DNA from: a phage
Reading direction: 5' to 3' (one strand)
Length of the DNA stretch: 64,000 nucleotides
Sequence record: PZ445429.1
Part shown: piece by piece, positions 4,587-60,202 of the stretch
Layout of the letters: every line of letters starts with the position of its first letter
Numbering within the stretch: the stretch's first letter is position 1
The notes under the pieces: generated by a model
What the model was told of the DNA's origin: nothing
The model's input: only the letters and a program-made list of their open reading frames with translations
Database searches by the model: none
Program-made: the position numbers and the translations under genes

Positions 4587-5477
4587 TTATACCAAATCTT
4601 TGAGCGATTCGGCAACTAAAATTTCAATACGTTGAGCCAACATATCGATCTCTTCTTTATTTAAGTCACCTGGGTCTTTGCCTTCTGGAAGAAGGAAGTT
4701 ACCAACTACAGGTGTTAAACGTGTTTTTGTACGAATTAGCTTCGCTAGTGCTTGGGCAGCTTTATTACCAGAGGCATCATTATCTAGCAAGATAACAACT
4801 ACTCTTACTCCAGCAATAATGTAAGGACTAAACTTATCCGCAATGTTATCAGATGTAAACTGATGTGTACCAAAGCAGCAAGAAGCATAATCTACACCAT
4901 TGTCTTCTAGATTTAACATATCAAAGATACCTTCAACTAGAACAAGAACTGGTGTATTATATCGTACAGGGAAAATCGGTGGTGAAACTTGTTTTGGTTT
5001 TACTAAGTATTTAGGAGGGGCAGAACTGTTTATAGAACGTCCCAGGAATAGGATATTGCGTCCAACAGCATCTGTTATTGGGAATACAATTCTGCCTTCC
5101 CAGTCTGCTTGATGTTGGAAAGCAAAATATTTCTTCAAGGTCTTAGAACTGATACCTCGGAAATCACCTTCGAAAAGGTAAGCAGATTCAGGAATTGCAA
5201 GATTCGTAGATCCATTCCTAATCTCTGAAATCTTTTTACGTACTTGTGACAATCTTGGGGACTGTCTGTACTGAGTCTCATTAAAATAATGGTAAATGCT
5301 CGGTATTCCTCTACCGAAGCCACAGCTCAAGCAATGCATAATACCTGATTCAGGATCAATACGCAAGCTTGGGTGTTTATCATCATGATCTGGATTGAGA
5401 CAACAGATGAGGATGTCCCCACCTGTGTCTTTGTATTCAATGCCTTTCAGATCAAGTAGTTCTGTTATTCTACTCAT
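4587..5477 (-). CDS. DNA primase (DnaG-like zinc-binding plus Toprim)
   Basis: 296 aa; CCLNPDHDD...HCLSCG zinc motif, Toprim acidic motifs EGIFD and LLDNDASG. Confidence 0.8.
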   Translation of the reverse strand: MSRITELLDLKGIEYKDTGGDILICCLNPDHDDKHPSLRIDPESGIMHCLSCGFGRGIPSIYHYFNETQYRQSPRLSQVRKKISEIRNGSTNLAIPESAYLFEGDFRGISSKTLKKYFAFQHQADWEGRIVFPITDAVGRNILFLGRSINSSAPPKYLVKPKQVSPPIFPVRYNTPVLVLVEGIFDMLNLEDNGVDYASCCFGTHQFTSDNIADKFSPYIIAGVRVVVILLDNDASGNKAAQALAKLIRTKTRLTPVVGNFLLPEGKDPGDLNKEEIDMLAQRIEILVAESLKDLV

Positions 5478-6997
5478 ATATCGCTGGCCTGTTCACCTGT
5501 TGAATTTTCAGCTTTGTCTTTCTTAGCACGTTTAGGTTGAGCTGGTTTATCCTTTTCAATAGGAATAACGAACTCAGCTTCCATTTGCGCAATATCTTCC
5601 ATTGCTAGGTTGGTAGTGTTATCCATTCGCAGAGTTTCCCAGTTCATCTTAGGCATAAACTTCACACTATCAGAGGAACGAGTCTTAACGAAGTCAAACA
5701 TAATAGCACCTTGACCATTATCAGCTTTTGCAGCATTAAGATTAGCAGCCATATCTGCGGAATCAAGAATCCCTTTAGACATACGCGTTCTACCATCTTG
5801 GTCAATCTGGTAAGGAGCAACACCAGCCACGTTATGTTTCTGGCAGATAGATTTGAAAGACGAACTAACGACCATCTGTTCTTTCCAGTCATACATGTCA
5901 ATGGTCTTTGAATCTGGAAGTCTTGTTTGGTTAATATAGTCTAGAAGAGCTACAGTAACCTTATCACCATATTTAGCAACTAGTTTATTTAATTCTACGT
6001 CAACCGTCGTAATAGACAGTTCAGGATCGTAAACGATGATCATAGGAGTGTGAAGCTCATAGCCTTCAAGGAGTTTACTTTCCATATCATAGAAGTCACT
6101 CATTTTAGCCATAGTGTATTGCTTAACGAAGTTATCGAAAAGCTCTTCACCCCCATTAAACATCCTAGCCCTAGTTCTGGCTAATCTCAACAGAGCAGCA
6201 CCTTCAAGAGTGTTATTACGCATTGCTAATGCAGATACTCCAGCTAACATAGCCAGATTACGTCTAAACACTTCGTGCTCTTTCATCTCAATTGAGAAGT
6301 ATGGAGCAATGTCTCCATTCAAATATTGCTGAACCTGTATGTTTGAACAGATAATGGATTTACCAGTACCACGCCAACCACCAAGCAGTAACGTTTCTGT
6401 GCGAGCTAAACCAATTTGAGCGTCGAACTCATTACAAATACCAAGAGCGATCAAGTTCAGTTTGGTATCTTCTTCTCTCTGGAAAATACGCATTGTGTCT
6501 GCGTTGAATACCTTTCCAGTATTCGTTACTTTCTCTTCTAATTTTAAGTGAAGGGAGGCAACTCGGTTGAGAATTTCTCCCTGATCCAGCATTGTTAAAT
6601 CTTGAAGCACGTCTGTTTCTAGAAGTTTCAGGAATAGATCCTGTGTATATTCGGCTTCTAGGACTTCAAGCGCCTGTTCCATGCTCACTTCTGGAATTTG
6701 AGTGTTAGCTAAGACGACAAGAGCTTGAGAAAGGCGGGCGTTCCTATTGGCCTCAAGCATCAGTGCGTCAATGGACGGCATTGCGTTATATTTCTTATAA
6801 TAATTCTGGACGGCTTGGTAAATTGAGGAGAAAGCGTCATTAAAATGATCTTTATGCAGTTTTGAGAATGTTTCCAATGCTATTTGCTTCTGTTCAGAAG
6901 CGAGAAGCATCTTCAACACTACAGCTTGCACGTTAAACAAGGTCATTCTCCTTTGCACGCTTTCGTGCCTTCTAAATGCAAAAAGGGGAAGGAGCAT
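5474..6997 (-). CDS. replicative DNA helicase (DnaB-like)
   Basis: 507 aa; Walker A GGWRGTGKS; 4-nt overlap with primase gene. Confidence 0.75.
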   Translation of the reverse strand: MLLPLFAFRRHESVQRRMTLFNVQAVVLKMLLASEQKQIALETFSKLHKDHFNDAFSSIYQAVQNYYKKYNAMPSIDALMLEANRNARLSQALVVLANTQIPEVSMEQALEVLEAEYTQDLFLKLLETDVLQDLTMLDQGEILNRVASLHLKLEEKVTNTGKVFNADTMRIFQREEDTKLNLIALGICNEFDAQIGLARTETLLLGGWRGTGKSIICSNIQVQQYLNGDIAPYFSIEMKEHEVFRRNLAMLAGVSALAMRNNTLEGAALLRLARTRARMFNGGEELFDNFVKQYTMAKMSDFYDMESKLLEGYELHTPMIIVYDPELSITTVDVELNKLVAKYGDKVTVALLDYINQTRLPDSKTIDMYDWKEQMVVSSSFKSICQKHNVAGVAPYQIDQDGRTRMSKGILDSADMAANLNAAKADNGQGAIMFDFVKTRSSDSVKFMPKMNWETLRMDNTTNLAMEDIAQMEAEFVIPIEKDKPAQPKRAKKDKAENSTGEQASDI

Positions 6998-7028: not shown

Positions 7029-7796
7029 TTATTCAGCAGCCGCAGCTTTTGCATCCAGTTTAGCACGCTTAGCAGCACCATCATAGTCCTTAGCAACCAG
7101 ACCACGACGAGACAGCATAGATTTAACACCGCGCTCAGACTTACCAGTTTTCTCAGCAACTTCTGCAACAGTCATAGAAGCCAGATCCAGACCTTCTAAC
7201 AGATCTTCACGAGTCTTAGCACTTGATGTTTCCTGTACCGGCATAGCAGCGATACGACCTTCACGAAGCAGGCTCAGAGCTTTACCACGGATCTGCTTAA
7301 TATTACGACCGAAGTGAGCAGCGATAGCTTCAATAGTAGCACCAGCAACAACCTGATTAACGAAATCAGTTTCTTCGTCAGGAGTGAAGGAACGAACAGC
7401 AGCAGCTTTTTCAGTTGGCTTAACAGAAGCGGTCATTTCCAGACTCAGGATCTTACCCTGTACCTGCTTAGCACCGAACTGACCACCAGCTACAGCAGCA
7501 GCGATTTCAGCGTAAGTATACTGACCAGCATGAGCGTTCAGGAAATCAACTAGTTCAGCTTCCTGCTCAGGAGTCCACGGGGATTTCTGTACTTCGTTAG
7601 CTTTCTGTACTTCGAAACCTTCTTTACGCAGCTTAGAGCCAACAGAGCGAGCGGTAACGTCTTTGCCAGTCTCGGTAGCCAGTTCAGCAGCGATAGCAGC
7701 TACTTGTTCTTGAGAGATTACAGCAACACCCAGAGCAGTGGCTTTTGCTTTCAGAGACTCGGTTACACCTTCTACGTTCCAGTTCAGTTTAGACAT
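7029..7796 (-). CDS. hypothetical Ala/Glu-rich protein with internal ~45-aa repeats (possible DNA-binding)
   Basis: 255-aa ORF, GC-richer codon usage; repeats TPEQEAELVDFL... and TPDEETDFVNQV...; minus-strand terminator downstream. Confidence 0.5.
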   Translation of the reverse strand: MSKLNWNVEGVTESLKAKATALGVAVISQEQVAAIAAELATETGKDVTARSVGSKLRKEGFEVQKANEVQKSPWTPEQEAELVDFLNAHAGQYTYAEIAAAVAGGQFGAKQVQGKILSLEMTASVKPTEKAAAVRSFTPDEETDFVNQVVAGATIEAIAAHFGRNIKQIRGKALSLLREGRIAAMPVQETSSAKTREDLLEGLDLASMTVAEVAEKTGKSERGVKSMLSRRGLVAKDYDGAAKRAKLDAKAAAAE

Positions 7797-8571
7797 TATT
7801 ATTTTTCTCCAATAGTTCTTTAATCGACAGGATTTCTATCCCATTCGTTTCGGCTTTCTTATAAGATGAGGAAGAACGTTTTGATTCATCCTCACAGATT
7901 AGGTATTTGACGTCTTTGGTAACGGACTTCTTGACCGTATATCCTAGACTTTCTAAATAGTTTGTTGCATCCGTTCGATTTGCAAAGTCTTGCAAAGATC
8001 CGGTAATACAGACCGTGATTCCATTTGGCTGGGCAACTAAATCATCTGTAATGATGATATCAGCTTTAGCACCTCGAATACCAGTTGAGAATTTCCACGG
8101 TAGTTCAATAACATCCTTGCCTTGTGGGGAATTTAGCCAGGTTTTGTAATTTTCTCCAGCCTTGCCGTCAGCCTTCACATCGTGGAAGCTAGTGCAATTT
8201 TGGGACAGTTTCTTTGCTGCAACCTCTCCAATAAGAGGAATTCCTAAAGAACCGAGAACTGAACCAAAGTCAATGTCTCCGCGAACCTTAGTATTTAACT
8301 CGCTAATCAACTTAGCGGCAACCTTGCTACCCACAGCTCCTACCAAATCTTCTTCGGTCAGGTAAAACAGTTCTGAGATCTTAGTCAGCTCCAGCTTCTC
8401 AATAGTTTTCGGGCCAAAGCCCTTTAACTTCATTTTTGTGCAGAAGTTCTCGATTAACTTACTTGATTGCGCTGGACAGTTGGACTTATTCCTACAGAAT
8501 AATTGCCCGTTGACAAGATCTAGCTTAGAACCACAAGAGGGACATTGTGTTGGAATTTCGATTTTCATCAA
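7789..8571 (-). CDS. NAD-dependent DNA ligase, C-terminal part (Zn finger, HhH, BRCT-like)
   Basis: 260 aa; CPSCGSKL...C..C zinc motif, HhH GFGPKTIEKL. Confidence 0.8.
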   Translation of the reverse strand: MMKIEIPTQCPSCGSKLDLVNGQLFCRNKSNCPAQSSKLIENFCTKMKLKGFGPKTIEKLELTKISELFYLTEEDLVGAVGSKVAAKLISELNTKVRGDIDFGSVLGSLGIPLIGEVAAKKLSQNCTSFHDVKADGKAGENYKTWLNSPQGKDVIELPWKFSTGIRGAKADIIITDDLVAQPNGITVCITGSLQDFANRTDATNYLESLGYTVKKSVTKDVKYLICEDESKRSSSSYKKAETNGIEILSIKELLEKNNNV

Positions 8572-8598
8572 ATTTCTTCCTTATCAATTTATATAAAT

Positions 8599-8627
8599 AT
8601 TATAGCAAGTATTTAAGCATTTAGCAA
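8599..8627 (-). promoter_or_regulatory. N25-type promoter in the gap between the two ligase ORFs
   Basis: Minus strand: TTGCTA, 17 bp, TATAAT then TATAAATTGATAAGGAAG before ATG of 7789-8571; a second TTGACA-17-TATACT lies further upstream. Confidence 0.6.
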
Positions 8628-8770
8628 CTACAATTTTAACTAACTTTGCTTACCCTCGCCATAACTTTCTATCCCTCAACTGAATGATAATAGTATATAC
8701 CTAAGCGGCGAAAATGTCAATAACCACTTTATAATTCCGACATGGTAAACGGGTAGCAAAGGGTTACGAA

Positions 8771-9745
8771 TTAGTCGTATACTCGCTCTACTATACAAGG
8801 GATTACACCACCAGCACGAATCACTCGAATCTGGCAACCGATCTCTAAATCGAGAGCGTTAATATAATCAACGTTATTAAGAGTTGCTTTAACGATTGTG
8901 GCATCATCAATAATCACCGGTTCGAAATAACCAACTGGAGTTACTTTACCAGAAGCCCCTACTTGCCATTCAACTTTAACAAGTGTGGTAATTTCGCCTT
9001 CTTCATCCTCTTTAATAGCAAATGCACCACGAGGAAATTTATTAGTCCAACCTTCACGGAAGAATTTGTTGTTATCATTAATACGAACAACTTTACCATC
9101 TGTCGGAATCCATTTAAAGAAGGAACGAACATTAATAACTGTCAAGAAGTTCTCATTCTCTAGCCAAAGCATATCTTTTAAATAGGCTTCTGTAATACCG
9201 ACTGTTTCCGCTGAACACTGGATACCATATGCAACGAAGATTAAACCACCTTCACCAATACGTTGCATGAAATCATCACTATCTTTTAGGTTAATAGCAC
9301 CAGAAGCATAGTTACGTTTGTTCTCTACTTCTTTAGTAATGAGAACTTCACCAGTGATTTGAGTTGGTACTTTTTGGGAAATAGTTTTGGGGATGTTCAG
9401 CATTTTAACATTATGCGTTACATCATTCCCTAGAATACCGTTACCACGAGTTAACGCTTGAACAAACTCACCATTAATATATAATAGAGAAATCGCACAA
9501 CCATCTAACTTATCAGTTTCAACCTGACCAAGTGGGTTGAATGGAGCTTTATCACCACGATCGTAATAGACTTTCTGCAAAGAATACATACGATACAAAT
9601 GAGGGATATCACCTTTCGGTCCGATTTCTTCCTCTAGTGGGAATCTTTTAATCAGACGATCATATTCTTCATCGGAAATAAGACTCATTCCCTGGTAGTA
9701 CGCTTCTTGACAACGTTTAATAAAGTCTTTTACATTATTCATCAT
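8771..9745 (-). CDS. NAD-dependent DNA ligase, N-terminal part (adenylation plus OB fold)
   Basis: 324 aa; adenylation motif TDKLDGCAISLLY (KxDG); OB-like C-terminus. Confidence 0.85.
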   Translation of the reverse strand: MMNNVKDFIKRCQEAYYQGMSLISDEEYDRLIKRFPLEEEIGPKGDIPHLYRMYSLQKVYYDRGDKAPFNPLGQVETDKLDGCAISLLYINGEFVQALTRGNGILGNDVTHNVKMLNIPKTISQKVPTQITGEVLITKEVENKRNYASGAINLKDSDDFMQRIGEGGLIFVAYGIQCSAETVGITEAYLKDMLWLENENFLTVINVRSFFKWIPTDGKVVRINDNNKFFREGWTNKFPRGAFAIKEDEEGEITTLVKVEWQVGASGKVTPVGYFEPVIIDDATIVKATLNNVDYINALDLEIGCQIRVIRAGGVIPCIVERVYD

Positions 9746-9953
9746 CTGCGATTTCCATTTTGAGTTCTTTACTATACTGTGCAGCCATACCAGCTAAATC
9801 AGCAGCTTCTTTCAACCACGCATCTTTGTACGCTTTCTGGTTTGGAGTGCCGATACTATCCTGGTAATTGATTCTTGCTATGGAGAGCAAATTAAGTTTT
9901 GCTTGAATCTTTGGAAGTGTTATTGTCATTGCCATAATTGATCCTCTCATCAA
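9735..9953 (-). CDS. hypothetical protein
   Basis: 72-aa ORF directly downstream of a minus-strand N25-type promoter. Confidence 0.4.
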   Translation of the reverse strand: MMRGSIMAMTITLPKIQAKLNLLSIARINYQDSIGTPNQKAYKDAWLKEAADLAGMAAQYSKELKMEIADDE

Positions 9954-9964
9954 TTTATATAAAT

Positions 9965-9993
9965 ATTATATATGAAAACTGAGTCGAAAGCAA
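9965..9993 (-). promoter_or_regulatory. N25-type promoter (minus strand)
   Basis: Minus strand: TTGCTT, 17 bp, TATAAT then TATAAATTGATGAGAGGATC before ATG at 9953. Confidence 0.65.
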
Positions 9994-10000
9994 GTACATT

Positions 10001-10035
10001 TATAAAGAAAAAGCCAAGAACTAGACATTCTTGGC
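10001..10035 (-). terminator. rho-independent terminator (minus strand)
   Basis: GCCAAGA...TCTTGGC hairpin with U-tract on minus strand after gene ending 10021. Confidence 0.6.
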
Positions 10036-10329
10036 TTTGAGTTCTTCAGCTCGTTTCTGTACTTCATGCAAGACCTCTGATTCACTGAGGATTTGCGTAA
10101 AAGCGTAGAATAGCTGTGATGTAGTTTCTAGGGTATAAGGAAAAGAGAAGCCGGATTTCGTTGGAAACCACTCTCCAGTAATATCTTGGAGCCAGTAACG
10201 AATTCCCATGTATAGATTCCCACGAAATTCAGATACGGTTAGTCTTACTTGTTCCCCCTCCTTCTCCCAAAGCATGATGGACTGGTCGTCAACGTGTCCT
10301 TCATAGTTTTGATTTACCTGATCGCTCAT
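10021..10329 (-). CDS. hypothetical protein
   Basis: 102-aa ORF followed by a minus-strand terminator hairpin. Confidence 0.5.
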   Translation of the reverse strand: MSDQVNQNYEGHVDDQSIMLWEKEGEQVRLTVSEFRGNLYMGIRYWLQDITGEWFPTKSGFSFPYTLETTSQLFYAFTQILSESEVLHEVQKRAEELKAKNV

Positions 10330-10379
10330 TTACATATCCCAAATACACAAAAAGCCCCATATAGGGGCTAATTGGTTTC

Positions 10380-21069: not shown

Positions 21070-21260
21070 AATATTTTACTATAAAGTTCTGTAACATGAT
21101 CTGAGTCAAAAAATTTTATTTGCCAACCTCTACTAAAAATAGTATAATCACGCATCCGTGTACGCGATATAAAATGATTATCTAGTACCATACATCTCCC
21201 AATAAAAGCAAGCAAATTTTTTATTTAAATGCAATATCATAGGCTTATTTAAAATTGTAG

Positions 21261-21289
21261 TTGCTTTCTCCCGTATATATTGGTATAAT
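21261..21289 (+). promoter_or_regulatory. sigma70-like promoter upstream of phoH
   Basis: -35 TTGCTT, 17 bp, -10 TATAAT. Confidence 0.6.
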
Positions 21290-21362
21290 ATATTTGTAAG
21301 TTGATAAACAAGATCTTTTTGTTGATCCTCTGTTAGCGAAGTACACTATAGGAGTGTTATTT

Positions 21363-22366: not shown

Positions 22367-22399
22367 GAGCCTGGGTATGAAAATATCCGGGCTCTTTTT
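22367..22399 (+). terminator. rho-independent terminator
   Basis: Hairpin GAGCCT...GGGCTC followed by TTTTT. Confidence 0.6.
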
Positions 22400-22482
22400 A
22401 TCTGTAAAATTGTACTTGCTAAATGACTGAGAATAAAGTAAACTATTTCCTAAATCCTGATAACTACAAAAAGGAAAGCCAA

Positions 22483-24813
22483 ATGAGCCATCGCATCGAA
22501 AAAGTAATTAAACGTGACGGTACTGTTCAGGACTTTGCTCCTGAAAAACTCAATGATTGGGCTGCATGGGCATGTAAAGATACTGACGTAAGTTGGTCTG
22601 CCGTAGTTATGGCTGCCCTGAAAAATCTACCCAAAGGTGTTGTAGATTCCGATACACTCCAAGATGTGTTAATTAAAGCTGCTGAAGGTCTTATCAAAGA
22701 CAATCCAGCATATGATACTGTAGCAAAGGAATTACGTCTTGCGCAGATGCGTAAACGCCTCTATGATTCCTTCGAACCACCTTCTCTACGTTTCTTCCAC
22801 GATCATATGGTTCGTGTCGGCGCTTGGGAAGACATGAGTGCATGGATTAGCGATGATCAGTTTGACGCTCTGAACCAAGTTATTGATCATGATCGCGATC
22901 GTTTATTCACCAGTGGTGGACTGAAACAGTTCTTCGACAAGTATTCCCGTCGTAATATTGCAACTGGTGAAATTTATGAAACCCCGCAGTTTGCCTACAT
23001 GGGTATGGCAATGGCGATGCTATCTCAACCTAACTGGACAATTCTCGATGCAATCGACCTCTACAACGCAATGTCACTCCATAAAATCAACGTGCCGACT
23101 CCACCTCTCGTGGGTCTTAGGAGCAGCGACCGCGGTTTTGCTTCTTGTTGTCTTGTTGATAGTACTGATACCCTCGATTCAATCGACACAGCCGAGCACA
23201 TCGTCTTCAAAATGGTCGCAGCCAGAGCGGGAATCGGGTATCATCTTGAAAGCCGATCAATTGCTGATCCGGTGCGAAATGGGGCATTCCCGCATTCCGG
23301 AAAACTGCCATATTATCGACACATTGACCGATCAGTAAAAGCTAACACTCAGCAAACCCGTGGTGGTTCTGCTACTGTGTCTTACCCATACTTCGATCCT
23401 GAAATCATTCAGTTGATGCAGGTTAAGCAGCAACGTGCTACAGACGAGAATAAAATCGATAAGATGGATTACTCTCTGAGCTTTAACAACCTTCTGTTAA
23501 AACGTTACCTGAAAAATGAAGATATTACGCTAATGTCCTACTTCTACGCACCAGAAGTTCATGAAGCGTTTTATGGCGAAGATGAGGCTAAGTTTGAAGA
23601 AATCTACGTGGCAGCGGAGAAACGTGTGGCATCTCTTACAAAGATCGACCACGAAGGAAAAACAATTCCAGCAGCTCCTAGAATCTCTGCAAAAGAAATC
23701 CTAGATACTTGGTTACGTATCCGTATGGAAACAGGGCGTATGTATGCTCATCACATTGGTGAATCTAACCGTCATGGTAACTTCCTTGACCCGATTCGTA
23801 TGACCAACCTTTGTGTTGAAATTACTCAGCCAACCCGTCCATTCCATCACATTACGGAGCTGTATAAGACCCAAGATCAGTTAGACGATATGCGTCCAGA
23901 AGATATTGGTGAAGTATCTCTGTGTAACTTAGGTGGTGTTGTACTAGGTCGTATGGAATCTCTGGCTGAATGGGAGAAAACTTGCTACATTCTTCTGAAA
24001 TTCGTTGATACAATCATCGAGATTCAGGATTACCCATTCCCAACTATGGAGTACACGGCTAAGAAACGTCGTAACGTTGGTATTGGTCTGATGAACGCAG
24101 CAGGTGCAATGGCAGCAGAAGGTTTGGCTTACGAAGGTGTTGAAGCCCGTAACTGGATTCACCGTGAAGCTGAAAAGCTGTCCTACTTCCTACATAAAGC
24201 CTCTGTACGTCTGGCTAAAGAACAAGGTGCATGTGACTGGTTTAATCGTACTAAGCCTTCGCAAGGAACTCTGGTAATCGACACGTACAAGAAAACTGTT
24301 GATGAACTGGTAACTGTAGGTCTAGAAATGGATTGGGAATCTCTGCGTGCAGATATTCTGAAATATGGTATGCGCAACTCTGTTCTGACTGCTCAGATGC
24401 CAGGTGAAAGTTCCTCTGTACTGCTAGGTGTTACTAACTCTATCGAACCGCCCCGTAAGATCGTATCTATCAAGGGTAGTGCAGTGAATAAAGTAATTGC
24501 AATTGCTCCAGGTGCAACTGATTGGGATACATTAATGAGCTATAAACTGGCTTATGATGTAGATCGTATCGAGTGGATCAAATGGGTAGCAACCATGCAG
24601 AAATTCTTCAGCCAGTCTATCAGTACGAATATGTACTATGACTACACCAAGTTCGAGAATGAAATCATTCCCGGCCCAGTAGTAGTTCGTGACTTTATGA
24701 CTGCTGTTAAGTACGGTTGGAAAACTTGGTACTACGCTAACTTCAACACTGAAAATGGTGGTGGAGCTGGTGAAGAAGCAGCAGGTTGTGCATCAGGTGG
24801 TTGTAACCTATAA
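22483..24813 (+). CDS. nrdA: ribonucleoside-diphosphate reductase large subunit (class Ia) with ATP-cone
   Basis: ~776 aa from ATG 22483 (RBS AAGGAAAG); ATP-cone VIKRDGT; terminator downstream. Confidence 0.9.
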   Translation: MSHRIEKVIKRDGTVQDFAPEKLNDWAAWACKDTDVSWSAVVMAALKNLPKGVVDSDTLQDVLIKAAEGLIKDNPAYDTVAKELRLAQMRKRLYDSFEPPSLRFFHDHMVRVGAWEDMSAWISDDQFDALNQVIDHDRDRLFTSGGLKQFFDKYSRRNIATGEIYETPQFAYMGMAMAMLSQPNWTILDAIDLYNAMSLHKINVPTPPLVGLRSSDRGFASCCLVDSTDTLDSIDTAEHIVFKMVAARAGIGYHLESRSIADPVRNGAFPHSGKLPYYRHIDRSVKANTQQTRGGSATVSYPYFDPEIIQLMQVKQQRATDENKIDKMDYSLSFNNLLLKRYLKNEDITLMSYFYAPEVHEAFYGEDEAKFEEIYVAAEKRVASLTKIDHEGKTIPAAPRISAKEILDTWLRIRMETGRMYAHHIGESNRHGNFLDPIRMTNLCVEITQPTRPFHHITELYKTQDQLDDMRPEDIGEVSLCNLGGVVLGRMESLAEWEKTCYILLKFVDTIIEIQDYPFPTMEYTAKKRRNVGIGLMNAAGAMAAEGLAYEGVEARNWIHREAEKLSYFLHKASVRLAKEQGACDWFNRTKPSQGTLVIDTYKKTVDELVTVGLEMDWESLRADILKYGMRNSVLTAQMPGESSSVLLGVTNSIEPPRKIVSIKGSAVNKVIAIAPGATDWDTLMSYKLAYDVDRIEWIKWVATMQKFFSQSISTNMYYDYTKFENEIIPGPVVVRDFMTAVKYGWKTWYYANFNTENGGGAGEEAAGCASGGCNL

Positions 24814-24822
24814 TAAAAACAA

Positions 24823-24850
24823 GGAGATCTTCGGGTCTCCTTTTTTCTTT
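24823..24850 (+). terminator. rho-independent terminator after nrdA
   Basis: GGAGATC-TTCG-GGTCTCC plus TTTTTTCTTT. Confidence 0.75.
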
Positions 24851-24860
24851 GAAATTTTAC

Positions 24861-24889
24861 TTGCTAATCGCTACCAGATTTGCTATAAT
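24861..24889 (+). promoter_or_regulatory. promoter upstream of HNH gene
   Basis: TTGCTA, 17 bp, TATAAT. Confidence 0.6.
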
Positions 24890-24913
24890 ATCTCTATATT
24901 AAGGAGATATACT

Positions 24914-25432
24914 GTGAAACCTCAACTAACAAAAGAATTTCTAGAGAAATATCTAGAACTCAGAGAAGATACTCTCTATTGGAAGCCAAGAGAGACTAAT
25001 AAAGGTGGATTTAATACTAGATTTGCTGGAAAACCTGTAGGAGCCGTCAATGGAAATGGCTACCTATGCTTCCGACTTAACGTGGAAGGTTATAGATGGG
25101 AATTAAGAAATCATGTAGTAATCTTCTGTCTCTATTATGGATATTACCCAACTAAGACAGTAGACCATAAAGATACAAATAAACTTAATAACCATCCTTT
25201 AAATCTACGAGAATCAACCGATGCTGGTAATGCCCAAAATAGGGGAGCCGGTAAAAACAATACCCATGGACATAAAAACCTAGAGCCTCTTAGTTCAGGA
25301 AACTGGAGGGTTAGGATAACACACAACGGTACTGTTTACAGATCTTCCGCAATGCCTCTAGAAAAAGCTCTAGAACATAGAGATATTAAACTTAAAGAAT
25401 TTCATGGCGAATACGCTAATAATGGAGAATAA
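24914..25432 (+). CDS. HNH homing endonuclease (free-standing, between nrdA and nrdB)
   Basis: GTG start after RBS TAAGGAGAT; HNH core DHKDTNKLNNHPLNLRESTDAGNAQN; own promoter at 24861-24889; paralog of 34849-35331. Confidence 0.7.
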   Translation: MKPQLTKEFLEKYLELREDTLYWKPRETNKGGFNTRFAGKPVGAVNGNGYLCFRLNVEGYRWELRNHVVIFCLYYGYYPTKTVDHKDTNKLNNHPLNLRESTDAGNAQNRGAGKNNTHGHKNLEPLSSGNWRVRITHNGTVYRSSAMPLEKALEHRDIKLKEFHGEYANNGE

Positions 25433-32907: not shown

Positions 32908-33291
32908 TAATTTAAAAGACTAGTAAATCGGTAGACGAAAGCCCAAGCATCTTACCTCGCAGCAGCGGTTGAAATACGAGGTTAAATAAGACCGCTGACC
33001 ATACTATAAAGTATAATCTATTGGAGATTATGTTTATTACATCAGACATTTAATCTGACACGTAAAAACAAAAGGTCGTTGGTAGTACCAACACAACTTC
33101 AAAGATCAACGCTCAAGTATGAAAGCTGAAAAGTTAAAAGCACTCAAACTTCTAACCTTCTAAAGCTAAAAGATGCAAAGTATTCGTTGATGATTCAAAC
33201 CCTAGATCAAAGGTACATGGCTCATAAGATATGGCCTGTGGCGCCTCTAGGCTGTTTATCGGTTTACTAGTCTCTCAATTTAAAAATGTAT

Positions 33292-33320
33292 TTGCTAATT
33301 AGTTTAGTTTTCTGTATAAT
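33292..33320 (+). promoter_or_regulatory. N25-type early promoter
   Basis: TTGCTA, 17 bp, TATAAT then AAATTGATGAGA. Confidence 0.7.
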
Positions 33321-33350
33321 ATATTTTTAAATTGATGAGACGAGGCTATT

Positions 33351-33668
33351 ATGATTTTTCATATTCTGATTGATGATGTGCGTAACCTTCATGGAATGGA
33401 CATTATCATTCGAACCCCCGAAGCCGCTGTTGAGTTTCTGAATAAAACCGATACCACCGGACATTTCATTTATATGGATAACGATCTGGCTGTAGATGGT
33501 ATGGAAGGTTATCAAATTCTTCGATTACTCCTAGAATTTGGTCAGAGACCCAAGAAAGTGGTACTAGTAACCTCGAACCCAGTAGCTAAAGAGACCATGC
33601 GTAATGATCTCTTAGACGAAGGGTATCAAGAAAGCCCTAATCGTATTGAGTACGATTGGCCGGAGTAA
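33351..33668 (+). CDS. stand-alone CheY-like receiver-domain protein
   Basis: 105 aa; HILIDDV, FIYMDNDLAVDGMEGYQILRLL, VVLVTS mirror receiver-domain motifs. Confidence 0.45.
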   Translation: MIFHILIDDVRNLHGMDIIIRTPEAAVEFLNKTDTTGHFIYMDNDLAVDGMEGYQILRLLLEFGQRPKKVVLVTSNPVAKETMRNDLLDEGYQESPNRIEYDWPE

Positions 33669-42690: not shown

Positions 42691-42897
42691 ATGGCTAATC
42701 CTGAAATTACGGCACAGCGCTTTATGCTAAAAGGTATTATTGCTGAAGCAGGCGTGACACAAGAAGTGGAAGATTTCCATAAGCAGTTCCTAAATATTCT
42801 CACTCAAGCCAAAGAGCTAGGAGAGAAAGAACATGGCGCGGCTATTATGGCAATCACATTGGTTGGGCTTGATCTGGCAGAAGAATCAGGAGTTTAA
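42691..42897 (+). CDS. hypothetical small protein
   Basis: ATG 42691 preceded by GGAGAAAAC. Confidence 0.45.
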   Translation: MANPEITAQRFMLKGIIAEAGVTQEVEDFHKQFLNILTQAKELGEKEHGAAIMAITLVGLDLAEESGV

Positions 42898-42927
42898 CTC
42901 CTCCAAGCAGAAATTTTAAAAATGTAC

Positions 42928-42957
42928 TTGCCTTTTGCTTTAAATTTCTGGTATAAT
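42928..42957 (+). promoter_or_regulatory. N25-type early promoter
   Basis: TTGCCT, 18 bp, TATAAT then TATAAATTGATGAAGGAG. Confidence 0.6.
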
Positions 42958-42987
42958 AGTTATATAAATTGATGAAGGAGTTAACGA

Positions 42988-43263
42988 ATGCAAAATCGTG
43001 TTATAGCAACTGGTATTGAAAGTGCAATCTGTAAATCCTGGGAAGGCTGGGAAGGTGAGATTGAATGGCTTTATTTCTACGATGTAGAACTTCTGCCGGA
43101 AGTTAAAGCTAAATGTGTTGAAGCTGGCATGGCTCCAGATGCAAAAGCTGATATTGATATTTCAATGTCTGAACTTAAAGGTCGTGTAATTACTGTTAGT
43201 GATGAGGGCGAAGAAGTTTTCGAACTTCCATTCTCCTTAACTGTCACTCCTAAGTTCGATTAA
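42988..43263 (+). CDS. hypothetical protein
   Basis: 91-aa ORF, promoter plus RBS GAAGGAG. Confidence 0.5.
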   Translation: MQNRVIATGIESAICKSWEGWEGEIEWLYFYDVELLPEVKAKCVEAGMAPDAKADIDISMSELKGRVITVSDEGEEVFELPFSLTVTPKFD

Positions 43264-47422: not shown

Positions 47423-47776
47423 ATGCAATTATCAAGCAAGGTTCAAGGCTATTTCGGGCATGTAACAATGGAGTTCGCTATCTCTAAAGGTTGGGACTTC
47501 GAACAAGATCTAGCTGAGTTCTACAAAGATATTGATCTGAACGTACCATACATGGGACTCTCCACTGGTCAAGAGATCACAGAAGGCGATGTGTTCAAGG
47601 CAAGTCAAGGTGAGGTAACACCTAGTTTTGCCAAGTTCTGGTTAGGTATCACACTGAAAGAAGATGCACCAGAGGATGGTGTGGTTATGCAGAGTATGCA
47701 CTCTGGAAGCTCTGATTACCTTTTCGTTAGTGACGTTAAGGAAATACAAGAAATCGCTAAAAATGTACTTGCTTGA
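47423..47776 (+). CDS. hypothetical protein
   Basis: ATG 47423 six nt after AAGGAA. Confidence 0.5.
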   Translation: MQLSSKVQGYFGHVTMEFAISKGWDFEQDLAEFYKDIDLNVPYMGLSTGQEITEGDVFKASQGEVTPSFAKFWLGITLKEDAPEDGVVMQSMHSGSSDYLFVSDVKEIQEIAKNVLA

Positions 47777-47797
47777 TGCTTAATTTCTTGTTATAAT
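47769..47797 (+). promoter_or_regulatory. N25-type promoter driving a noncoding leader and tRNA-Ala cluster
   Basis: TTGCTT, 17 bp, TATAAT then TATAAATTGATGAGGAG. Confidence 0.7.
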
Positions 47798-48037
47798 ATT
47801 TATATAAATTGATGAGGAGAAATCCTCATCAAAGTTCACTAAGGTATTAGCTCGACCCAGGACTGGCTGCCAAAAAGCACGATCCCTACGACTCGGGAGA
47901 AGTTCTAGATTAGTCCACTAGATTCAGCGGCAACTGAATAGTGTATCGGGTTTGTGAAGAGCGGTTATCCTCTACTGGCTAATGTCTGAGGGTAATACGC
48001 ACACCGAGCTAATAGCCTTAGTAAACTTAAAGATTTT
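47798..48037 (+). ncRNA. promoter-driven 240-nt leader upstream of tRNA-Ala (candidate small RNA or processed spacer)
   Basis: N25-type promoter at 47769-47797, then hairpin TGATGAGGA-GAAAT-CCTCATCA and 220 nt without an ORF. Confidence 0.3.
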
Positions 48038-50425: not shown

Positions 50426-50500
50426 GCTCCTAAAGCATTGCTGGCGATGCAGTTGCCTTGTAAGCATCTGAACTGGGTTCGACTCCTGGTGGGAGCACCA
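50426..50500 (+). tRNA. tRNA-Thr (TGT)
   Basis: Acceptor GCTCCTA/TGGGAGC, D-stem GCAT/ATGC, loop CTTGTAA, CCA. Confidence 0.7.
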
Positions 50501-50515
50501 AATTTAAAAATTCAT

Positions 50516-50544
50516 TTGCCTTCTCTCTTATTTCTTGTTATAAT
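50516..50544 (+). promoter_or_regulatory. N25-type early promoter
   Basis: TTGCCT, 17 bp, TATAAT then TATAAATTAATGAGAGGG. Confidence 0.7.
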
Positions 50545-50574
50545 ATTTATATAAATTAATGAGAGGGAAACCAA

Positions 50575-50868
50575 ATGAAACGTTATCTTTCTGTCGTATT
50601 CCAAACGGGTGGTCAACGCTATACTTACGAATTTCCTGAGTCTTGGAAAATTAAAGAAGGTGATCAAGTTGTTGTATTAACACCTCGTGAAGGCTTCAAA
50701 GTAGTAACGGTTAAACAAGTCTTTCCAAAAGATCACGAACCATCTAAGTCTATTCAGTACAAGATGATTCACGGTCTGGTACGAAAAGTACCTAGAACAG
50801 AAGTCGAAGTAGATAAAACTGGGGAAGCTAAATACCAGTATACTTCTTACTTGGATGAAATGATGTAA
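50575..50868 (+). CDS. hypothetical protein
   Basis: 97-aa ORF, promoter plus RBS GAGAGGGAAACC. Confidence 0.5.
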   Translation: MKRYLSVVFQTGGQRYTYEFPESWKIKEGDQVVVLTPREGFKVVTVKQVFPKDHEPSKSIQYKMIHGLVRKVPRTEVEVDKTGEAKYQYTSYLDEMM

Positions 50869-52268: not shown

Positions 52269-52664
52269 ATGAGCCGTACATATCGTAAACAATCTGGTGA
52301 TCGTCACTGGCGTGATGCACATCGTTCTACTTATAATTTTCATAGCACTAATATCCGTATTCCGTATATCTACACGGATAGGGATGGTAAGCAGTGGAAA
52401 TATTATCAAGTTCGATCCAATGAAGCATGGGCTAAAACTTGGGATGAAATTGAGAAGGAGATTCAGGAAAATATCATTCGTAACGAGAAGAAAGATGGGC
52501 ACTGGTGGGATTCTATTAGTAGAAGTGTTAAGTGGCATTCTAACAAAATGGTTCGTCAGGGAAACCGTCGTGAACTTCACCGTGTGATGAAAGATCCAGA
52601 AAATTACGACTATAATCGTGATCATGACCTGCGTAAGCGTGGGTTATGGTGGGTTTATGACTAA
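52269..52664 (+). CDS. hypothetical basic Trp-rich protein
   Basis: 131-aa ORF with RBS ATGGAGGTAAT. Confidence 0.5.
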   Translation: MSRTYRKQSGDRHWRDAHRSTYNFHSTNIRIPYIYTDRDGKQWKYYQVRSNEAWAKTWDEIEKEIQENIIRNEKKDGHWWDSISRSVKWHSNKMVRQGNRRELHRVMKDPENYDYNRDHDLRKRGLWWVYD

Positions 52665-52681
52665 TTTCATAAATAATTCAT

Positions 52682-52710
52682 TTGCTAAAACCCTCTCCTT
52701 TTGATATAAT
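52682..52710 (+). promoter_or_regulatory. N25-type early promoter
   Basis: TTGCTA, 17 bp, TATAAT then TATAAATTGATGAGAGGG. Confidence 0.7.
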
Positions 52711-52740
52711 ATTTATATAAATTGATGAGAGGGCTTTGAA

Positions 52741-53013
52741 ATGAAAGAAGCAGAAATTAATGAAATGGCTAGAATATTCATCGTTTCCTATATGCAAGGC
52801 AGTTGCAATAGTTTATTCGAGTCTGCTATAGTATTTCAGGAAATGTTAGCCGAGAAAGGCGTACATATGGAAGATACTGAAATTGAAGATCTTCTAATGG
52901 AAACTTGTAGTAGTGCTGAAGTCTTCCAGTGTGGTAACTGTAATTGGTGGTGTCCAGAGCATGATCGTTCTGAAGAAGGTTCCTACTGTTCCGATTGTGA
53001 AGGAGAAGAATAA
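52741..53013 (+). CDS. small zinc-binding-like protein
   Basis: 90 aa; CGNCNWWCPEHD...CSDCEG. Confidence 0.45.
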   Translation: MKEAEINEMARIFIVSYMQGSCNSLFESAIVFQEMLAEKGVHMEDTEIEDLLMETCSSAEVFQCGNCNWWCPEHDRSEEGSYCSDCEGEE

Positions 53014-58915: not shown

Positions 58916-59332
58916 ATGTTTGCAGAACTATTCACCATGATATTACTAGGAATATGGAAAATAAGCCTAGTAATTTTCATCTTAATGATAATTCTCACTG
59001 TTGTCACACTAGTTACCCAAAATGATACATTAAAGAAAGTCGTTCATGGGCTAGAGTATATAATTATGGGCACATTCGGCGTTTGCAAATGCAACTGCCA
59101 GAGGAATACGAAATATTGTTGGCTTTGGATGGAGTTAGAGAACTGCATCACAGTAGCCCTGGCTGTCTCATTCGGTATGATTCTTATGGCCCTAACTCTA
59201 GCATTGATACCACTAATGTTAGCTGGGGGAGTCACGGCTTATTTCACCCTTTTCTCCCCTATACTTATGTATTCAATATATCCAATAACTATGTACTTAG
59301 TTAGGAAGAGATTCCCACATCAAGCACACTAA
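58916..59332 (+). CDS. integral membrane protein
   Basis: 138 aa, 3-4 hydrophobic helices. Confidence 0.45.
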   Translation: MFAELFTMILLGIWKISLVIFILMIILTVVTLVTQNDTLKKVVHGLEYIIMGTFGVCKCNCQRNTKYCWLWMELENCITVALAVSFGMILMALTLALIPLMLAGGVTAYFTLFSPILMYSIYPITMYLVRKRFPHQAH

Positions 59333-59345
59333 TATAAAAAAGTAG

Positions 59346-59374
59346 TTGACTTTCCGCTGAAATTTTTATATAAT
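59346..59374 (+). promoter_or_regulatory. N25-type early promoter
   Basis: TTGACT, 17 bp, TATAAT then TATAAATTGAATCAGAGGAG. Confidence 0.7.
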
Positions 59375-59407
59375 ATTTGTATAAATTGAATCAGAGGAGT
59401 TTCACAA

Positions 59408-59818
59408 ATGTCAGATCGTTACTATACTCAGATGGCTAACCATTACAATATGGCTCCGTATGAATTGAACATCGCATTACGTGACCTCGATTCACCAGAG
59501 CGTGCAAAACTTGAGAAAAAGGCGGGAATTCGTATGTCTAGCAAGGGCAAGAAACTTACTCGTATTGACTTAAATACCATGCTAATGGAAGAGCTTGGCG
59601 TGAATATTGAAGGTCAGAAGTTGCCTCTCAATGTTCTTGAAACGATGCTGGATAAAGTCAAAAAGAAAACCTATAAGAAAGTACAAGTACCGGAAGGCAG
59701 GCTAAAAGCCCCTTATCAGGCTGCTGTATCTGAGTGCTTAGGTGCTACCTTAGATCTTAGCACTGCAACTGTTAAAGTGATGAAGGCATTTTTGGAGGCC
59801 ATTAATAAACATGAGTAA
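59408..59818 (+). CDS. hypothetical protein
   Basis: 136-aa ORF after promoter and RBS AGAGGAG. Confidence 0.5.
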   Translation: MSDRYYTQMANHYNMAPYELNIALRDLDSPERAKLEKKAGIRMSSKGKKLTRIDLNTMLMEELGVNIEGQKLPLNVLETMLDKVKKKTYKKVQVPEGRLKAPYQAAVSECLGATLDLSTATVKVMKAFLEAINKHE

Positions 59819-60101: not shown

Positions 60102-60108
60102 TAAATCC

Positions 60109-60138
60109 AACCCAGATCTTAGCTGATCTGGGTTTTTA
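60109..60138 (+). terminator. rho-independent terminator
   Basis: AACCCAGATC...GATCTGGGTT plus TTTTT. Confidence 0.75.
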
Positions 60139-60142
60139 TTAC

Positions 60143-60171
60143 TTGCTTTCTGCTAAAAATTTTGATATAAT
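60143..60171 (+). promoter_or_regulatory. N25-type early promoter
   Basis: TTGCTT, 17 bp, TATAAT then TATAAATTGATGAGAGGAG. Confidence 0.7.
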
Positions 60172-60202
60172 ATATGTATAAATTGATGAGAGGAGTATCA
60201 CA

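What the first reader, a model, noticed from the sequence alone, without database searches (positions are those of the whole stretch)
7789..9745. NAD-dependent DNA ligase split into two ORFs by a 199-bp promoter-bearing spacer
The adenylation/OB part (8771-9745) and the Zn-finger/HhH part (7789-8571) are separate reading frames on the minus strand. The spacer (8572-8770) carries an N25-type promoter and a second sigma70-like promoter, so the C-terminal half can be expressed independently. This is either a two-subunit ligase or the scar of an inserted element.
Basis: partly seen in the sequence, partly recalled or inferred. Interest (0 to 1): 0.45.

Follow-up and report, generated by a model that had tools for sequence, protein, structure and literature searches.

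The report
Phage T5-type two-subunit DNA ligase
This is the well-known two-gene (ligA/ligB) NAD-dependent DNA ligase of T5-like phages, with the classical T5 early promoters P-K28b and P-K28a between the two genes; it is real and functional-looking, but it is already annotated in hundreds of genomes and a homologous two-chain enzyme is in the Protein Data Bank.

Summary
On the minus strand, ligA (8771-9745; Ia + adenylation + OB) and ligB (7789-8568/8571; Zn finger + HhH + BRCT) are separate, differently framed ORFs. They are split by a ~200-bp spacer with stops in all frames and two strong sigma70 promoters. The window is a T5-like phage (Demerecviridae, Epseptimavirus; 99.2% to EscoHU1). [quoted passage not shown] The T5 record names the spacer promoters P-K28b and P-K28a. 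PDB entries 9hu3/9i5i hold both chains of the Providencia-phage homologue. The break falls in the OB-to-Zn-finger linker of E. coli LigA (about residues 397-400). Nothing is inserted there, catalytic residues and Zn cysteines are kept, and both genes show codon-position patterns typical of purifying selection. The 153-bp promoter block is 100% identical to T5. A tandem promoter pair sits directly upstream of ligB across the family, including a Vibrio phage where 1-3 extra genes separate the halves. No intron, intein or homing-endonuclease remnant was found. Verdict: a genuine, ancestral two-subunit ligase that is already known. Low interest.

The parts
8771..9745 (-). [quoted passage not shown]
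   Evidence: ORF. Pfam PF01653 and PF03120. PDB 9hu3_A matches at E 8.8e-107 over residues 4-324. The product is 100% identical to the EscoHU1 'subunit A'. E. coli LigA residues Y22, Y35, D36, K115, D117, G118, E173, R200, D285, G286 and K314 are invariant in the alignment.
8572..8770 (-). Intergenic spacer between ligA and ligB (199 bp to the TTG, 202 bp to the ATG at 8568); non-coding, carries two promoters
   Evidence: Stops in all three frames and GC 32%. It is 97.5% identical to T5 overall, and 100% over the 153 bp from the first -35 hexamer to the ligB start. No Rfam family scores near its threshold.
8692..8720 (-). Upstream promoter, equivalent of T5 P-K28b: -35 TTGACA (8720-8715), 17-nt spacer, -10 TATACT (8697-8692); predicted transcription start near 8685
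   Evidence: Scan (11/12). The T5 record annotates 'promoter P-K 28b' at the homologous position (L002 2503-2577 corresponds to window 8740-8666). The hexamers are conserved in Klebsiella, Eos, Providencia and Pectobacterium phages and in Vibrio phage phi 3.
8576..8639 (-). Downstream promoter, equivalent of T5 P-K28a. It comprises an A-tract (8639-8628), -35 TTGCTA (8627-8622), extended -10 TGcTATAAT (8607-8599), an ATATT-type discriminator with the conserved initial transcribed region, and the Shine-Dalgarno AAGGAAG (8582-8576).
   Evidence: The T5 record annotates 'promoter P-K 28a' (L002 2596-2670 corresponds to window 8647-8573). About 13 paralogous copies elsewhere in the window share the same architecture. 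The ATATT discriminator is described as typical of T5 early promoters in PMC7472727.
7789..8568 (-). [quoted passage not shown]
   Evidence: Pfam BRCT and weak HhH. PDB 9hu3_B matches at E 1.1e-79, and E. coli LigA 2owo residues 402-529 and 585-666 align. C408, C411 and C432 are invariant and the fourth Cys is offset by one column.
9965..9993 (-). T5-early-type promoter upstream of the ligA transcription unit (-35 TTGCTT 9993-9988; -10 TATAAT 9970-9965). A terminator-like hairpin at 10038-10010 precedes it.
   Evidence: The T5 record has a 'putative promoter' directly upstream of ligA.
9735..9953 (-). Small ORF (72 aa from the TTG, 66 aa from the ATG at 9935) between that promoter and ligA. 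Its end overlaps the ligA start. It is part of the same transcription unit and of unknown function.
   Evidence: Annotated as a hypothetical protein in EscoHU1. Absent at this position in T5. No Pfam match.
7029..7796 (-). D5 gene (putative transcription factor / DNA-binding protein). Its start overlaps the ligB stop by 8 nt. It is the next gene of the unit headed by ligB, and the replicative helicase gene (5474-6997) follows.

Best explanation
The region encodes the orthologue of the phage T5 ligA/ligB pair, an NAD+-dependent DNA ligase made of two polypeptides. Subunit A (Ia, adenylation and OB domains) carries the chemistry: self-adenylylation on the KxDG lysine using NAD+, AMP transfer to the 5' phosphate at a nick, and sealing. 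Subunit B (Zn finger, HhH, BRCT) supplies the DNA-binding half that, in single-chain LigA, closes the clamp around nicked duplex DNA. The chain is cut in the OB-to-Zn-finger linker, so the two proteins must dock non-covalently to rebuild the LigA architecture. That docking is inferred from the co-crystallised homologue. The ~200-bp gap is not a scar. It is a conserved regulatory block holding two tandem host-sigma70 early promoters (T5 P-K28b and P-K28a). These start a transcription unit running ligB, D5, helicase, primase. ligA is the last gene of the preceding unit, which has its own early promoter near 9993-9965. No terminator separates the two units, so ligB probably also receives read-through transcripts. 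Shown here: the ORFs, domains, break position, conservation, promoter sequences and their homology to annotated T5 promoters, and the existence of a solved two-chain homologue. Inferred: heterodimer formation and ligase activity of this particular pair, promoter use in vivo, and the relative expression of the two subunits.
For: Identity: 99.2% nucleotide identity to Escherichia phage EscoHU1, with 428 phage records covering at least 80% of the region. The annotated synteny D2, D3, ligase subunit A, ligase subunit B, D5, helicase, primase matches. The T5 record AY692264 annotates ligA (AAU05253), ligB (AAU05254) and promoters P-K28b and P-K28a in the gap, and PMC3632103 lists the same two subunits. 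Solved homologue: 9hu3/9i5i chain A (E 8.8e-107) and chain B 'DNA ligase subunit B' (E 1.1e-79). The chain B sequence is 100% identical to Providencia phage PSTCR5. Break position: subunit A ends opposite E. coli LigA residue ~396 and subunit B starts opposite ~401. Catalytic and Zn-binding residues are conserved. Selection: against T5, phiR2-01 and IME260, third codon positions are far more diverged than first and second (for example 72.6% against 94-97% in ligA versus T5), whereas the 153-bp promoter block is 100%, 97% and 78% identical. Promoters: 11/12 and 10/12+TG matches, against about 0.04 expected per 199 bp per strand. About 13 paralogous early-promoter copies occur in the window. The tandem pair is retained directly upstream of ligB in Priunavirus, Hongcheonvirus and Vibrio phage phi 3. 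Role of the LigA domains: review PMC7470946.
Against: Nothing found here contradicts it. The limits are these. No biochemical paper on a T5-type two-subunit ligase was found in the searchable library, so activity and stoichiometry rest on the PDB deposit and on homology. I could not read the PDB entries themselves, so I do not know whether they contain DNA or how the chains contact each other. In vivo use of the two promoters in this particular phage is inferred from sequence identity to T5 features named in GenBank. The original promoter paper (Gentz and Bujard 1985) is not held. The HhH Pfam match is below the gathering threshold, and that domain is shorter than in E. coli LigA.
Confidence: 0.93

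Rival explanations
1. A decaying gene: a once single-chain LigA was broken by insertion of a mobile element or moron, and the two ORFs are non-functional remnants (the 'scar' reading).
For: The junction is a place where extra DNA accumulates in relatives. Salmonella phage smaug has a 64-aa ORF there. Vibrio phages phi 3, Noelle and 70E37-3 have 1-3 ORFs there. A historical insertion of a promoter-bearing cassette into a single-chain ancestor cannot be excluded as the origin of the split.
Against: Both ORFs are full length, keep the catalytic and Zn residues and show a purifying-selection pattern. The arrangement is kept in about 930 phage records spanning several subfamilies. A homologous pair was expressed and crystallised. 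Rfam finds no intron in the spacer. None of the intervening ORFs in relatives hits an HNH, GIY-YIG or LAGLIDADG endonuclease, a transposase or an intein family in Pfam.
Confidence: 0.03
2. A sequencing or assembly frameshift artefact: the real gene is one continuous LigA ORF.
Against: The halves are separated by ~200 bp with multiple stops in every frame, not by a single indel. The same structure is present in hundreds of independently sequenced genomes. The spacer has no counterpart in E. coli LigA: the alignment leaves only about 4 linker residues unaccounted for.
Confidence: 0.005
3. One protein restored after expression, by a split intein (protein trans-splicing) or by RNA splicing of an intron in the spacer.
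For: Split genes in phages are sometimes intron- or intein-interrupted, and T5-like genomes carry homing endonucleases elsewhere (general knowledge).
Against: Subunit A ends and subunit B begins flush with the LigA alignment, so there is no room for intein halves. No intron family hit was found. The spacer is filled by two promoter footprints. The PDB entries list two separate chains of 339 and 248 residues.
Confidence: 0.005
4. Subunit B also acts on its own. Being driven by two very strong promoters, it is made in excess of subunit A. It then serves a ligase-independent role such as nick binding or protection, or replisome or clamp recruitment through its BRCT domain.
For: The tandem promoters stay attached to ligB even where ligA lies up to 1.4 kb away. 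ligB heads the unit containing D5, helicase and primase. T5 virion DNA carries site-specific nicks that remain unsealed (general knowledge; nicked genome noted in PMC4319617).
Against: No direct evidence. The promoters may simply serve the downstream replication genes. ligA and ligB homologues are found in similar numbers of records, which fits obligate partnership.
Confidence: 0.1

Closest known systems
Bacteriophage T5 ligA/ligB (T5p114/T5p115; AAU05253/AAU05254) with promoters P-K28b and P-K28a
   Same: Same gene order, same break, same 199-bp spacer. The 153-bp promoter block is 100% identical; ligA is 88% and ligB 94% identical at nucleotide level.
   Different: The window is an Epseptimavirus-type genome (closest to EscoHU1). 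It has an extra 66-72-aa ORF between the upstream promoter and ligA that T5 lacks at that spot.
Two-chain NAD-dependent DNA ligase in PDB 9hu3/9i5i (chain B identical to Providencia phage PSTCR5, Priunavirus, Demerecviridae)
   Same: Same two-subunit architecture and lengths (339 and 248 residues, possibly with tags). Both chains align end to end with the window proteins. The same ~190-bp gap with tandem promoters is present.
   Different: T5-like subunit B sequences are only ~54% identical to the PDB chain B. The sequence between the two promoters is not conserved.
Single-chain bacterial LigA (E. coli LigA, PDB 2owo)
   Same: Same domain set in the same order (Ia, NTase, OB, Zn, HhH, BRCT). 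Same catalytic lysine motif KxDG, motifs III to V and a Cys4 Zn finger.
   Different: Here the chain is cut in the OB-Zn linker into two genes. The NTase and HhH domains are shorter: 583 residues in total against 671. Identity is only about 25-35%.
Vibrio Demerecviridae (phi 3, Noelle, 70E37-3) ligase subunits
   Same: Same split and the same flanking replication genes; in phi 3 the same tandem promoters lie immediately upstream of ligB.
   Different: One to three extra ORFs (73-190 aa, one annotated as DprA-like) lie between the subunits, so the gap is 443-1374 bp.

Membership tests
NAD+-dependent DNA ligase (LigA) family | Domain Ia with the NMN-binding residues (E. coli Y22, D32, Y35, D36) | tested here: met
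   Y22, Y35 and D36 are invariant, and D32 is D in the window protein, in the alignment with E. coli LigA.
NAD+-dependent DNA ligase (LigA) family | Nucleotidyltransferase domain with the KxDG adenylation lysine and motifs III, IV and V | tested here: met
   PF01653 at E 1.4e-23. K115, D117, G118, E173, R200, D285, G286 and K314 are invariant. E. coli K290 is R in the phage proteins.
NAD+-dependent DNA ligase (LigA) family | LigA-type OB-fold domain | tested here: met
   PF03120 at E 9.5e-22. Residues 214-319 align to OB domains of several solved LigAs.
NAD+-dependent DNA ligase (LigA) family | Cys4 zinc finger after the OB domain | tested here: met
   CPSC...C...C lies at the N-terminus of subunit B. 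C408, C411 and C432 are invariant, and the fourth Cys is shifted by one alignment column.
NAD+-dependent DNA ligase (LigA) family | Helix-hairpin-helix DNA-binding domain | tested here: inconclusive
   It aligns to E. coli LigA 433-529 (whole-sequence E 8.4e-12). However, Pfam HHH_2 scores 21.6 bits, below the 27-bit cut-off, and the domain is shorter than in E. coli.
NAD+-dependent DNA ligase (LigA) family | C-terminal BRCT domain | tested here: met
   PF00533 at E 1.1e-8, 35.6 bits against a cut-off of 21.3.
NAD+-dependent DNA ligase (LigA) family | All domains on one polypeptide | tested here: not met
   Two ORFs in different frames are separated by ~200 bp with stops in all frames. This is the known peculiarity of the Demerecviridae enzyme.
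NAD+-dependent DNA ligase (LigA) family | NAD+-dependent nick-sealing activity | not testable with these tools
   Needs an enzyme assay. It is inferred only from conserved residues and from the solved homologue.
Demerecviridae (T5-type) two-subunit ligase LigA/LigB | Adjacent same-strand genes, with the break between the OB and Zn-finger domains | tested here: met
   Subunit A ends opposite E. coli residue ~396 and subunit B starts opposite ~401.
Demerecviridae (T5-type) two-subunit ligase LigA/LigB | Orthology and synteny with T5 ligA/ligB | tested here: met
   88% and 94% nucleotide identity to T5, with the same neighbours: D3, PC4-like gene, D5, helicase, primase.
Demerecviridae (T5-type) two-subunit ligase LigA/LigB | Both subunits similar to the two chains of the solved enzyme (9hu3) | tested here: met
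   E 8.8e-107 and 1.1e-79, near full length.
Demerecviridae (T5-type) two-subunit ligase LigA/LigB | Physical association of the two subunits | not testable with these tools
   Both chains occur in the same two PDB entries, but I could not inspect the coordinates. The single-sequence AlphaFold model of subunit B was unusable (pLDDT 34).
T5 early sigma70 promoters (P-N25 / P-K28 class) | Upstream A-tract, -35 TTGCT(T/A), 17-nt spacer, TG-extended TATAAT, ATATT discriminator, conserved initial transcribed region with an SD | tested here: met
   The promoter at 8639-8576 shows all of these elements and aligns with about 13 copies in the window. It is identical to the T5 feature P-K28a. The discriminator motif is described in PMC7472727. 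The upstream promoter (P-K28b) has consensus hexamers but a CTATT discriminator.
T5 early sigma70 promoters (P-N25 / P-K28 class) | Demonstrated transcription initiation | not testable with these tools
   This relies on the GenBank feature names in AY692264. The primary paper is not held.
Intron-, intein- or homing-endonuclease-interrupted gene | Intron RNA, intein blocks or an endonuclease ORF at the junction | tested here: not met
   No Rfam hit near its threshold. No extra residues at the junction. The intervening ORFs of relatives have no endonuclease, transposase or intein Pfam match.

The most novel reading that the evidence does not exclude
The split is adaptive because it uncouples the dosage and timing of the DNA-binding module (LigB) from the catalytic module (LigA). 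LigB would be made from two of the strongest known sigma70 promoters. It would then have a second, ligase-independent job, for example occupying the site-specific nicks of T5 DNA or tethering replication proteins through its BRCT domain. A family-wide conserved tandem promoter stays glued to ligB even when other genes separate it from ligA, which fits this idea but does not show it.
Probability: 0.1. Interest if true: 0.5.

Novelty: already known. Interest (0 to 1): 0.1.

Why it matters
As a finding it adds nothing new. The split ligase has been annotated since the T5 genome records (AY692264, AY587007). The spacer promoters carry classical T5 names, and a homologous heterodimer is in the PDB. 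Its general interest is as a natural example of a multidomain DNA-clamping enzyme that works as two non-covalently associated chains. The open questions are why the split is kept across a whole phage family and what the subunit stoichiometry is in infected cells.

Tried and rejected
(1) Literature searches for the paper behind PDB 9hu3/9i5i, or for any biochemical study of a T5-type two-subunit ligase, found only genome annotations and reviews. The review PMC7470946 does not mention the split.

(2) Searching for 'K28a/K28b' returned only unrelated papers. Gentz and Bujard 1985 (PMC214212) is not held. The supplement of PMC7472727 holds no promoter table.

(3) Rfam at a permissive E-value on 8450-8900 gave only four chance-level hits, all well below their gathering scores.

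(4) An RNA fold of the leader from the upstream promoter (8686-8560) gave z = -3.7. The paired sequence is not conserved in Priunavirus or Hongcheonvirus, so I do not claim a structure.

(5) The 8-codon mini-ORF at 8662-8636 is not conserved as an ORF in IME260 or Eos, so I rejected it as a gene.

(6) A single-sequence AlphaFold2 model of subunit B had mean pLDDT 34. I therefore ran no fold search. I ran no further search on a feature that is already annotated.

(7) The Photobacterium plasmid 'BRCT domain-containing protein' that matches ligB end to end turned out to be a 637-aa single-chain protein.

(8) Serratia jumbo phage 2050HW has its ligase annotated as three CDSs. The fragmentation is at the N-terminus, so it is not the same split.

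(9) One search failed because locus files were not yet available to the script. I redid the computation through an alignment.
Full report
**What is there**

On the minus strand, one search lists an ORF at 8771-9745 (324 aa, ATG) and an ORF at 7789-8571 (260 aa, TTG, with an ATG one codon downstream at 8568). Their starts are 1174 nt apart, so they are in different frames. The 199 bp between them (8572-8770) contain several stop codons in every minus-strand frame and are AT-rich: 32% GC, against 37-41% in the two genes.

Pfam assigns the NAD-dependent ligase adenylation domain (E 1.4e-23) and the LigA OB domain (E 9.5e-22) to the first product. It assigns a BRCT domain (E 1.1e-8) and a weak HhH match to the second.

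The one refinement concerns the ligB start, which is most likely the ATG at 8568. The TTG is not conserved in the Klebsiella, Eos and Providencia relatives, whereas the ATG is. EscoHU1 annotates the ATG, and the solved homologue starts MKI.

**Where the window comes from and what is already annotated**

The 2.35 kb around the finding are 99.2% identical to Escherichia phage EscoHU1 (Demerecviridae, Epseptimavirus). They match 455 phage records, 428 of them over at least 80% of the query.

[quoted passage not shown] They sit between D2/D3 and D5, the replicative helicase and the primase.

The T5 record AY692264 annotates ligA (T5p114, AAU05253) and ligB (T5p115, AAU05254). In the gap between them it annotates two regulatory features, 'promoter P-K 28b' and 'promoter P-K 28a'.

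PMC3632103 lists the same two subunits in its map of the T5 replication region. [quoted passage not shown]

**A solved homologue**

A sequence search of the PDB gives entries 9hu3 and 9i5i as the best hit for both products. Chain A, 'DNA ligase (NAD(+))', has 339 residues and matches at E 8.8e-107 over residues 4-324. Chain B, 'DNA ligase subunit B', has 248 residues and matches at E 1.1e-79.

I reconstructed the chain B sequence from the printed alignment. It is 100% identical to the ligB gene of Providencia phage PSTCR5 (Priunavirus, Demerecviridae). A two-chain ligase of this family has thus been produced and its structure deposited. I could not find the associated paper in the held library.

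**Where the break is**

I aligned the products with E. coli LigA (fetched).

- Subunit A runs from the N-terminus to about residue 396, the end of the OB domain.
- Subunit B starts opposite about residue 401, four residues before the first Zn-finger cysteine, C408.
- Only the few residues of the OB-Zn linker are unaccounted for, and nothing is inserted.

The following E. coli LigA residues are invariant in the alignment of E. coli, window, T5, Providencia and Vibrio sequences:

- Y22, Y35 and D36 (domain Ia)
- K115, D117 and G118 (the KxDG adenylation motif)
- E173, R200, D285, G286 and K314
- C408, C411 and C432

The fourth Zn-finger cysteine is present one alignment column away. The NTase and HhH domains are shorter than in E. 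coli.

The review PMC7470946 summarises the domain roles in single-chain LigA. The Zn finger positions the HhH domain relative to the OB fold. The NTase and HhH domains make the clamp-closing contacts. The BRCT domain enhances binding. In the split enzyme the OB-Zn connection must therefore be non-covalent. That step is an inference.

**Both halves are live genes**

I compared the window with T5, Yersinia phage phiR2-01 and Klebsiella phage IME260.

| Comparison | ligA nt identity | ligB nt identity |
|---|---|---|
| T5 | 88% | 94% |
| phiR2-01 | 80% | 88% |
| IME260 | 68% | 66% |

Third codon positions are much more diverged than first and second positions. For ligA against T5 the per-position identities are 94.2, 97.5 and 72.6%. 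For ligA against IME260 they are 78.2, 82.8 and 41.8%. This is the pattern of purifying selection on proteins, not of decaying fragments.

tblastn finds ligB homologues in 930 phage records, almost all Demerecviridae from Salmonella, Escherichia, Klebsiella, Vibrio, Proteus, Providencia, Serratia, Aeromonas and other hosts. The next hits outside that group are single-chain ligases at 27% identity or less. ligA homologues at 50% identity or more are found in a comparable set of records.

**The spacer is a regulatory block, not a scar**

The scan finds TTGACA-17-TATACT (8720-8692, 11/12) and TTGCTA-17-TATAAT with a TG extension (8627-8599, 10/12). Both lie on the coding strand. A first-order Markov simulation of the window gives about 0.04 sites of this quality per 199 bp per strand.

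The T5 features P-K28b and P-K28a map onto window 8740-8666 and 8647-8573 and contain these hexamers.

Conservation of the 153 bp from the first -35 hexamer to the ligB start, compared with the window:

| Relative | Promoter block identity | Flanking coding DNA |
|---|---|---|
| T5 | 100% | 88-94% |
| phiR2-01 | 97% | 80-88% |
| IME260 | 78% | 66-68% |

The downstream promoter belongs to a repeated family. About 13 other sites in the window share the pattern A-tract, TTGCT(T/A), 17 nt, TG-n-TATAAT, then ATTTATATAAATTGATGAGAGG and a start codon. PMC7472727 describes an ATATT discriminator as common to all known T5 early promoters, and it is present here. The specific name in T5 is P-K28a.

**The arrangement is ancestral in the family**

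The gap between the two genes varies as follows:

| Phage group | Gap | Content |
|---|---|---|
| Markadamsvirinae, Sugarlandvirus, Priunavirus, Hongcheonvirus, phage Eos | 189-202 bp | No ORF |
| Salmonella phage smaug | 358 bp | One 64-aa ORF |
| Vibrio phage 70E37-3 | 443 bp | Two small ORFs |
| Vibrio phage phi 3 | 922 bp | A 73-aa ORF and a DprA-like gene |
| Vibrio phage Noelle | 1374 bp | Three ORFs |

In the three distant relatives scanned, a TTGACA-type promoter lies directly upstream of ligB, followed 86-96 bp later by a TTGC-type promoter with a TG-extended -10:

- Providencia: 2347 and 2443, with ligB at 2501.
- Pectobacterium: 2356 and 2442, with ligB at 2501.
- Vibrio phi 3: 3606 and 3702, with ligB at 3759.

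The promoter pair therefore travels with ligB. None of the intervening ORFs matches a homing endonuclease, transposase or intein family in Pfam. Rfam finds nothing credible in the spacer. A historical insertion as the origin of the split cannot be excluded, but there is no remnant of one.

**Transcription context in the window**

A terminator-like hairpin at 10038-10010 is followed by an early-type promoter (-35 at 9993-9988, -10 at 9970-9965). Next come a small ORF (9735-9953) and ligA, whose start overlaps the small ORF's end. No terminator-like site lies between ligA and ligB. The ligB stop overlaps the D5 start by 8 nt, and the helicase gene follows.

My reading is that ligA closes one early unit and ligB opens the next (ligB, D5, helicase, primase). 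ligB would be transcribed from read-through plus two strong promoters of its own. This is inference from sequence.

**Verdict**

The finding is real, and the 'two-subunit ligase with an independently transcribed second half' reading is supported. However, every element of it is already in public annotation: T5 ligA/ligB, P-K28a/b, and the PDB entry 9hu3. Novelty is 'already known' and interest is low.

The only open point is why the split is maintained and whether LigB is made in excess or has a second role. I rate that reading at about 0.1 probability.

Noticed in passing
window, promoter-orientation spans: 47727-47837(+), 42889-42999(+), 21220-21330(+), 15822-15712(-), 52641-52751(+), 10034-9924(-), 50475-50585(+), 11251-11141(-), 60102-60212(+), 24820-24930(+), 33251-33361(+), 59305-59415(+), 22375-22485(+): About 13 further copies of the T5 early-promoter architecture occur in the window. 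The pattern is an A-tract, TTGCT(T/A), 17 nt, TG-n-TATAAT, then ATTTATATAAATTGATGAGAGG and a start codon. They were found as weak paralogous matches to the ligB-proximal promoter. The copy at 11251-11141 lies, by gene order (upstream of the D3 homologue), where T5 annotates P-N26.
   Followed up: partly
window 9735-9953 (-): A 66-72-aa ORF lies between the ligA-upstream promoter and ligA, and its end overlaps the ligA start. It is annotated as a hypothetical protein in EscoHU1. It is absent at this spot in T5, where the promoter abuts ligA. It has no Pfam match.
   Followed up: partly
window 10010-10038 (-) and 10353-10369 (both strands): There are two terminator-like hairpins. One lies immediately upstream of the ligA-unit promoter. 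The other is a palindromic hairpin that scores on both strands and lies between the 102-aa ORF 10021-10329 (the counterpart, by size and position, of T5's PC4-like T5p113) and the preceding gene.
   Followed up: no
window 8636-8662 (-): An 8-codon mini-ORF (MARVSKVS) follows an SD-like GAGGGA downstream of the P-K28b-type promoter. It is identical in T5 but not conserved as an ORF in Klebsiella phage IME260 or phage Eos. It is probably not a gene.
   Followed up: partly
window 8560-8686 (-): The predicted leader RNA from the upstream promoter folds at -26.1 kcal/mol (z = -3.7 against shuffles). It pairs GUUAUGGCGAG with the CUUGCUAUAAU of the downstream promoter's -10 region. The sequence between the promoters is not conserved in Priunavirus or Hongcheonvirus, so the significance is doubtful.
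   Followed up: partly
L003 3098-3670, L004 3755-4315, L009 783-1346: A DprA-like gene sits between ligA and ligB in Vibrio phage phi 3, and probably in Noelle (its 186-aa ORF gives only a weak DNA_processg_A hit). In Pectobacterium phage DU_PP_V it sits immediately upstream of ligA. The gene has therefore moved around the ligase locus within the family.
   Followed up: no
L013 2106-4090 (Serratia jumbo phage 2050HW): Its NAD-dependent ligase is annotated as three consecutive CDSs of 65, 59 and 535 aa. The fragmentation is at the N-terminus, so it is a different break from the T5-type split. It may be frameshifts or an annotation artefact.
   Followed up: no
L007 1268-1462 (Salmonella phage smaug): An extra 64-aa ORF is inserted between the end of ligA and the promoter block in an otherwise ~95% identical Epseptimavirus. 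This shows the ligA-proximal end of the spacer tolerates insertions. The ORF has no Pfam match.
   Followed up: partly
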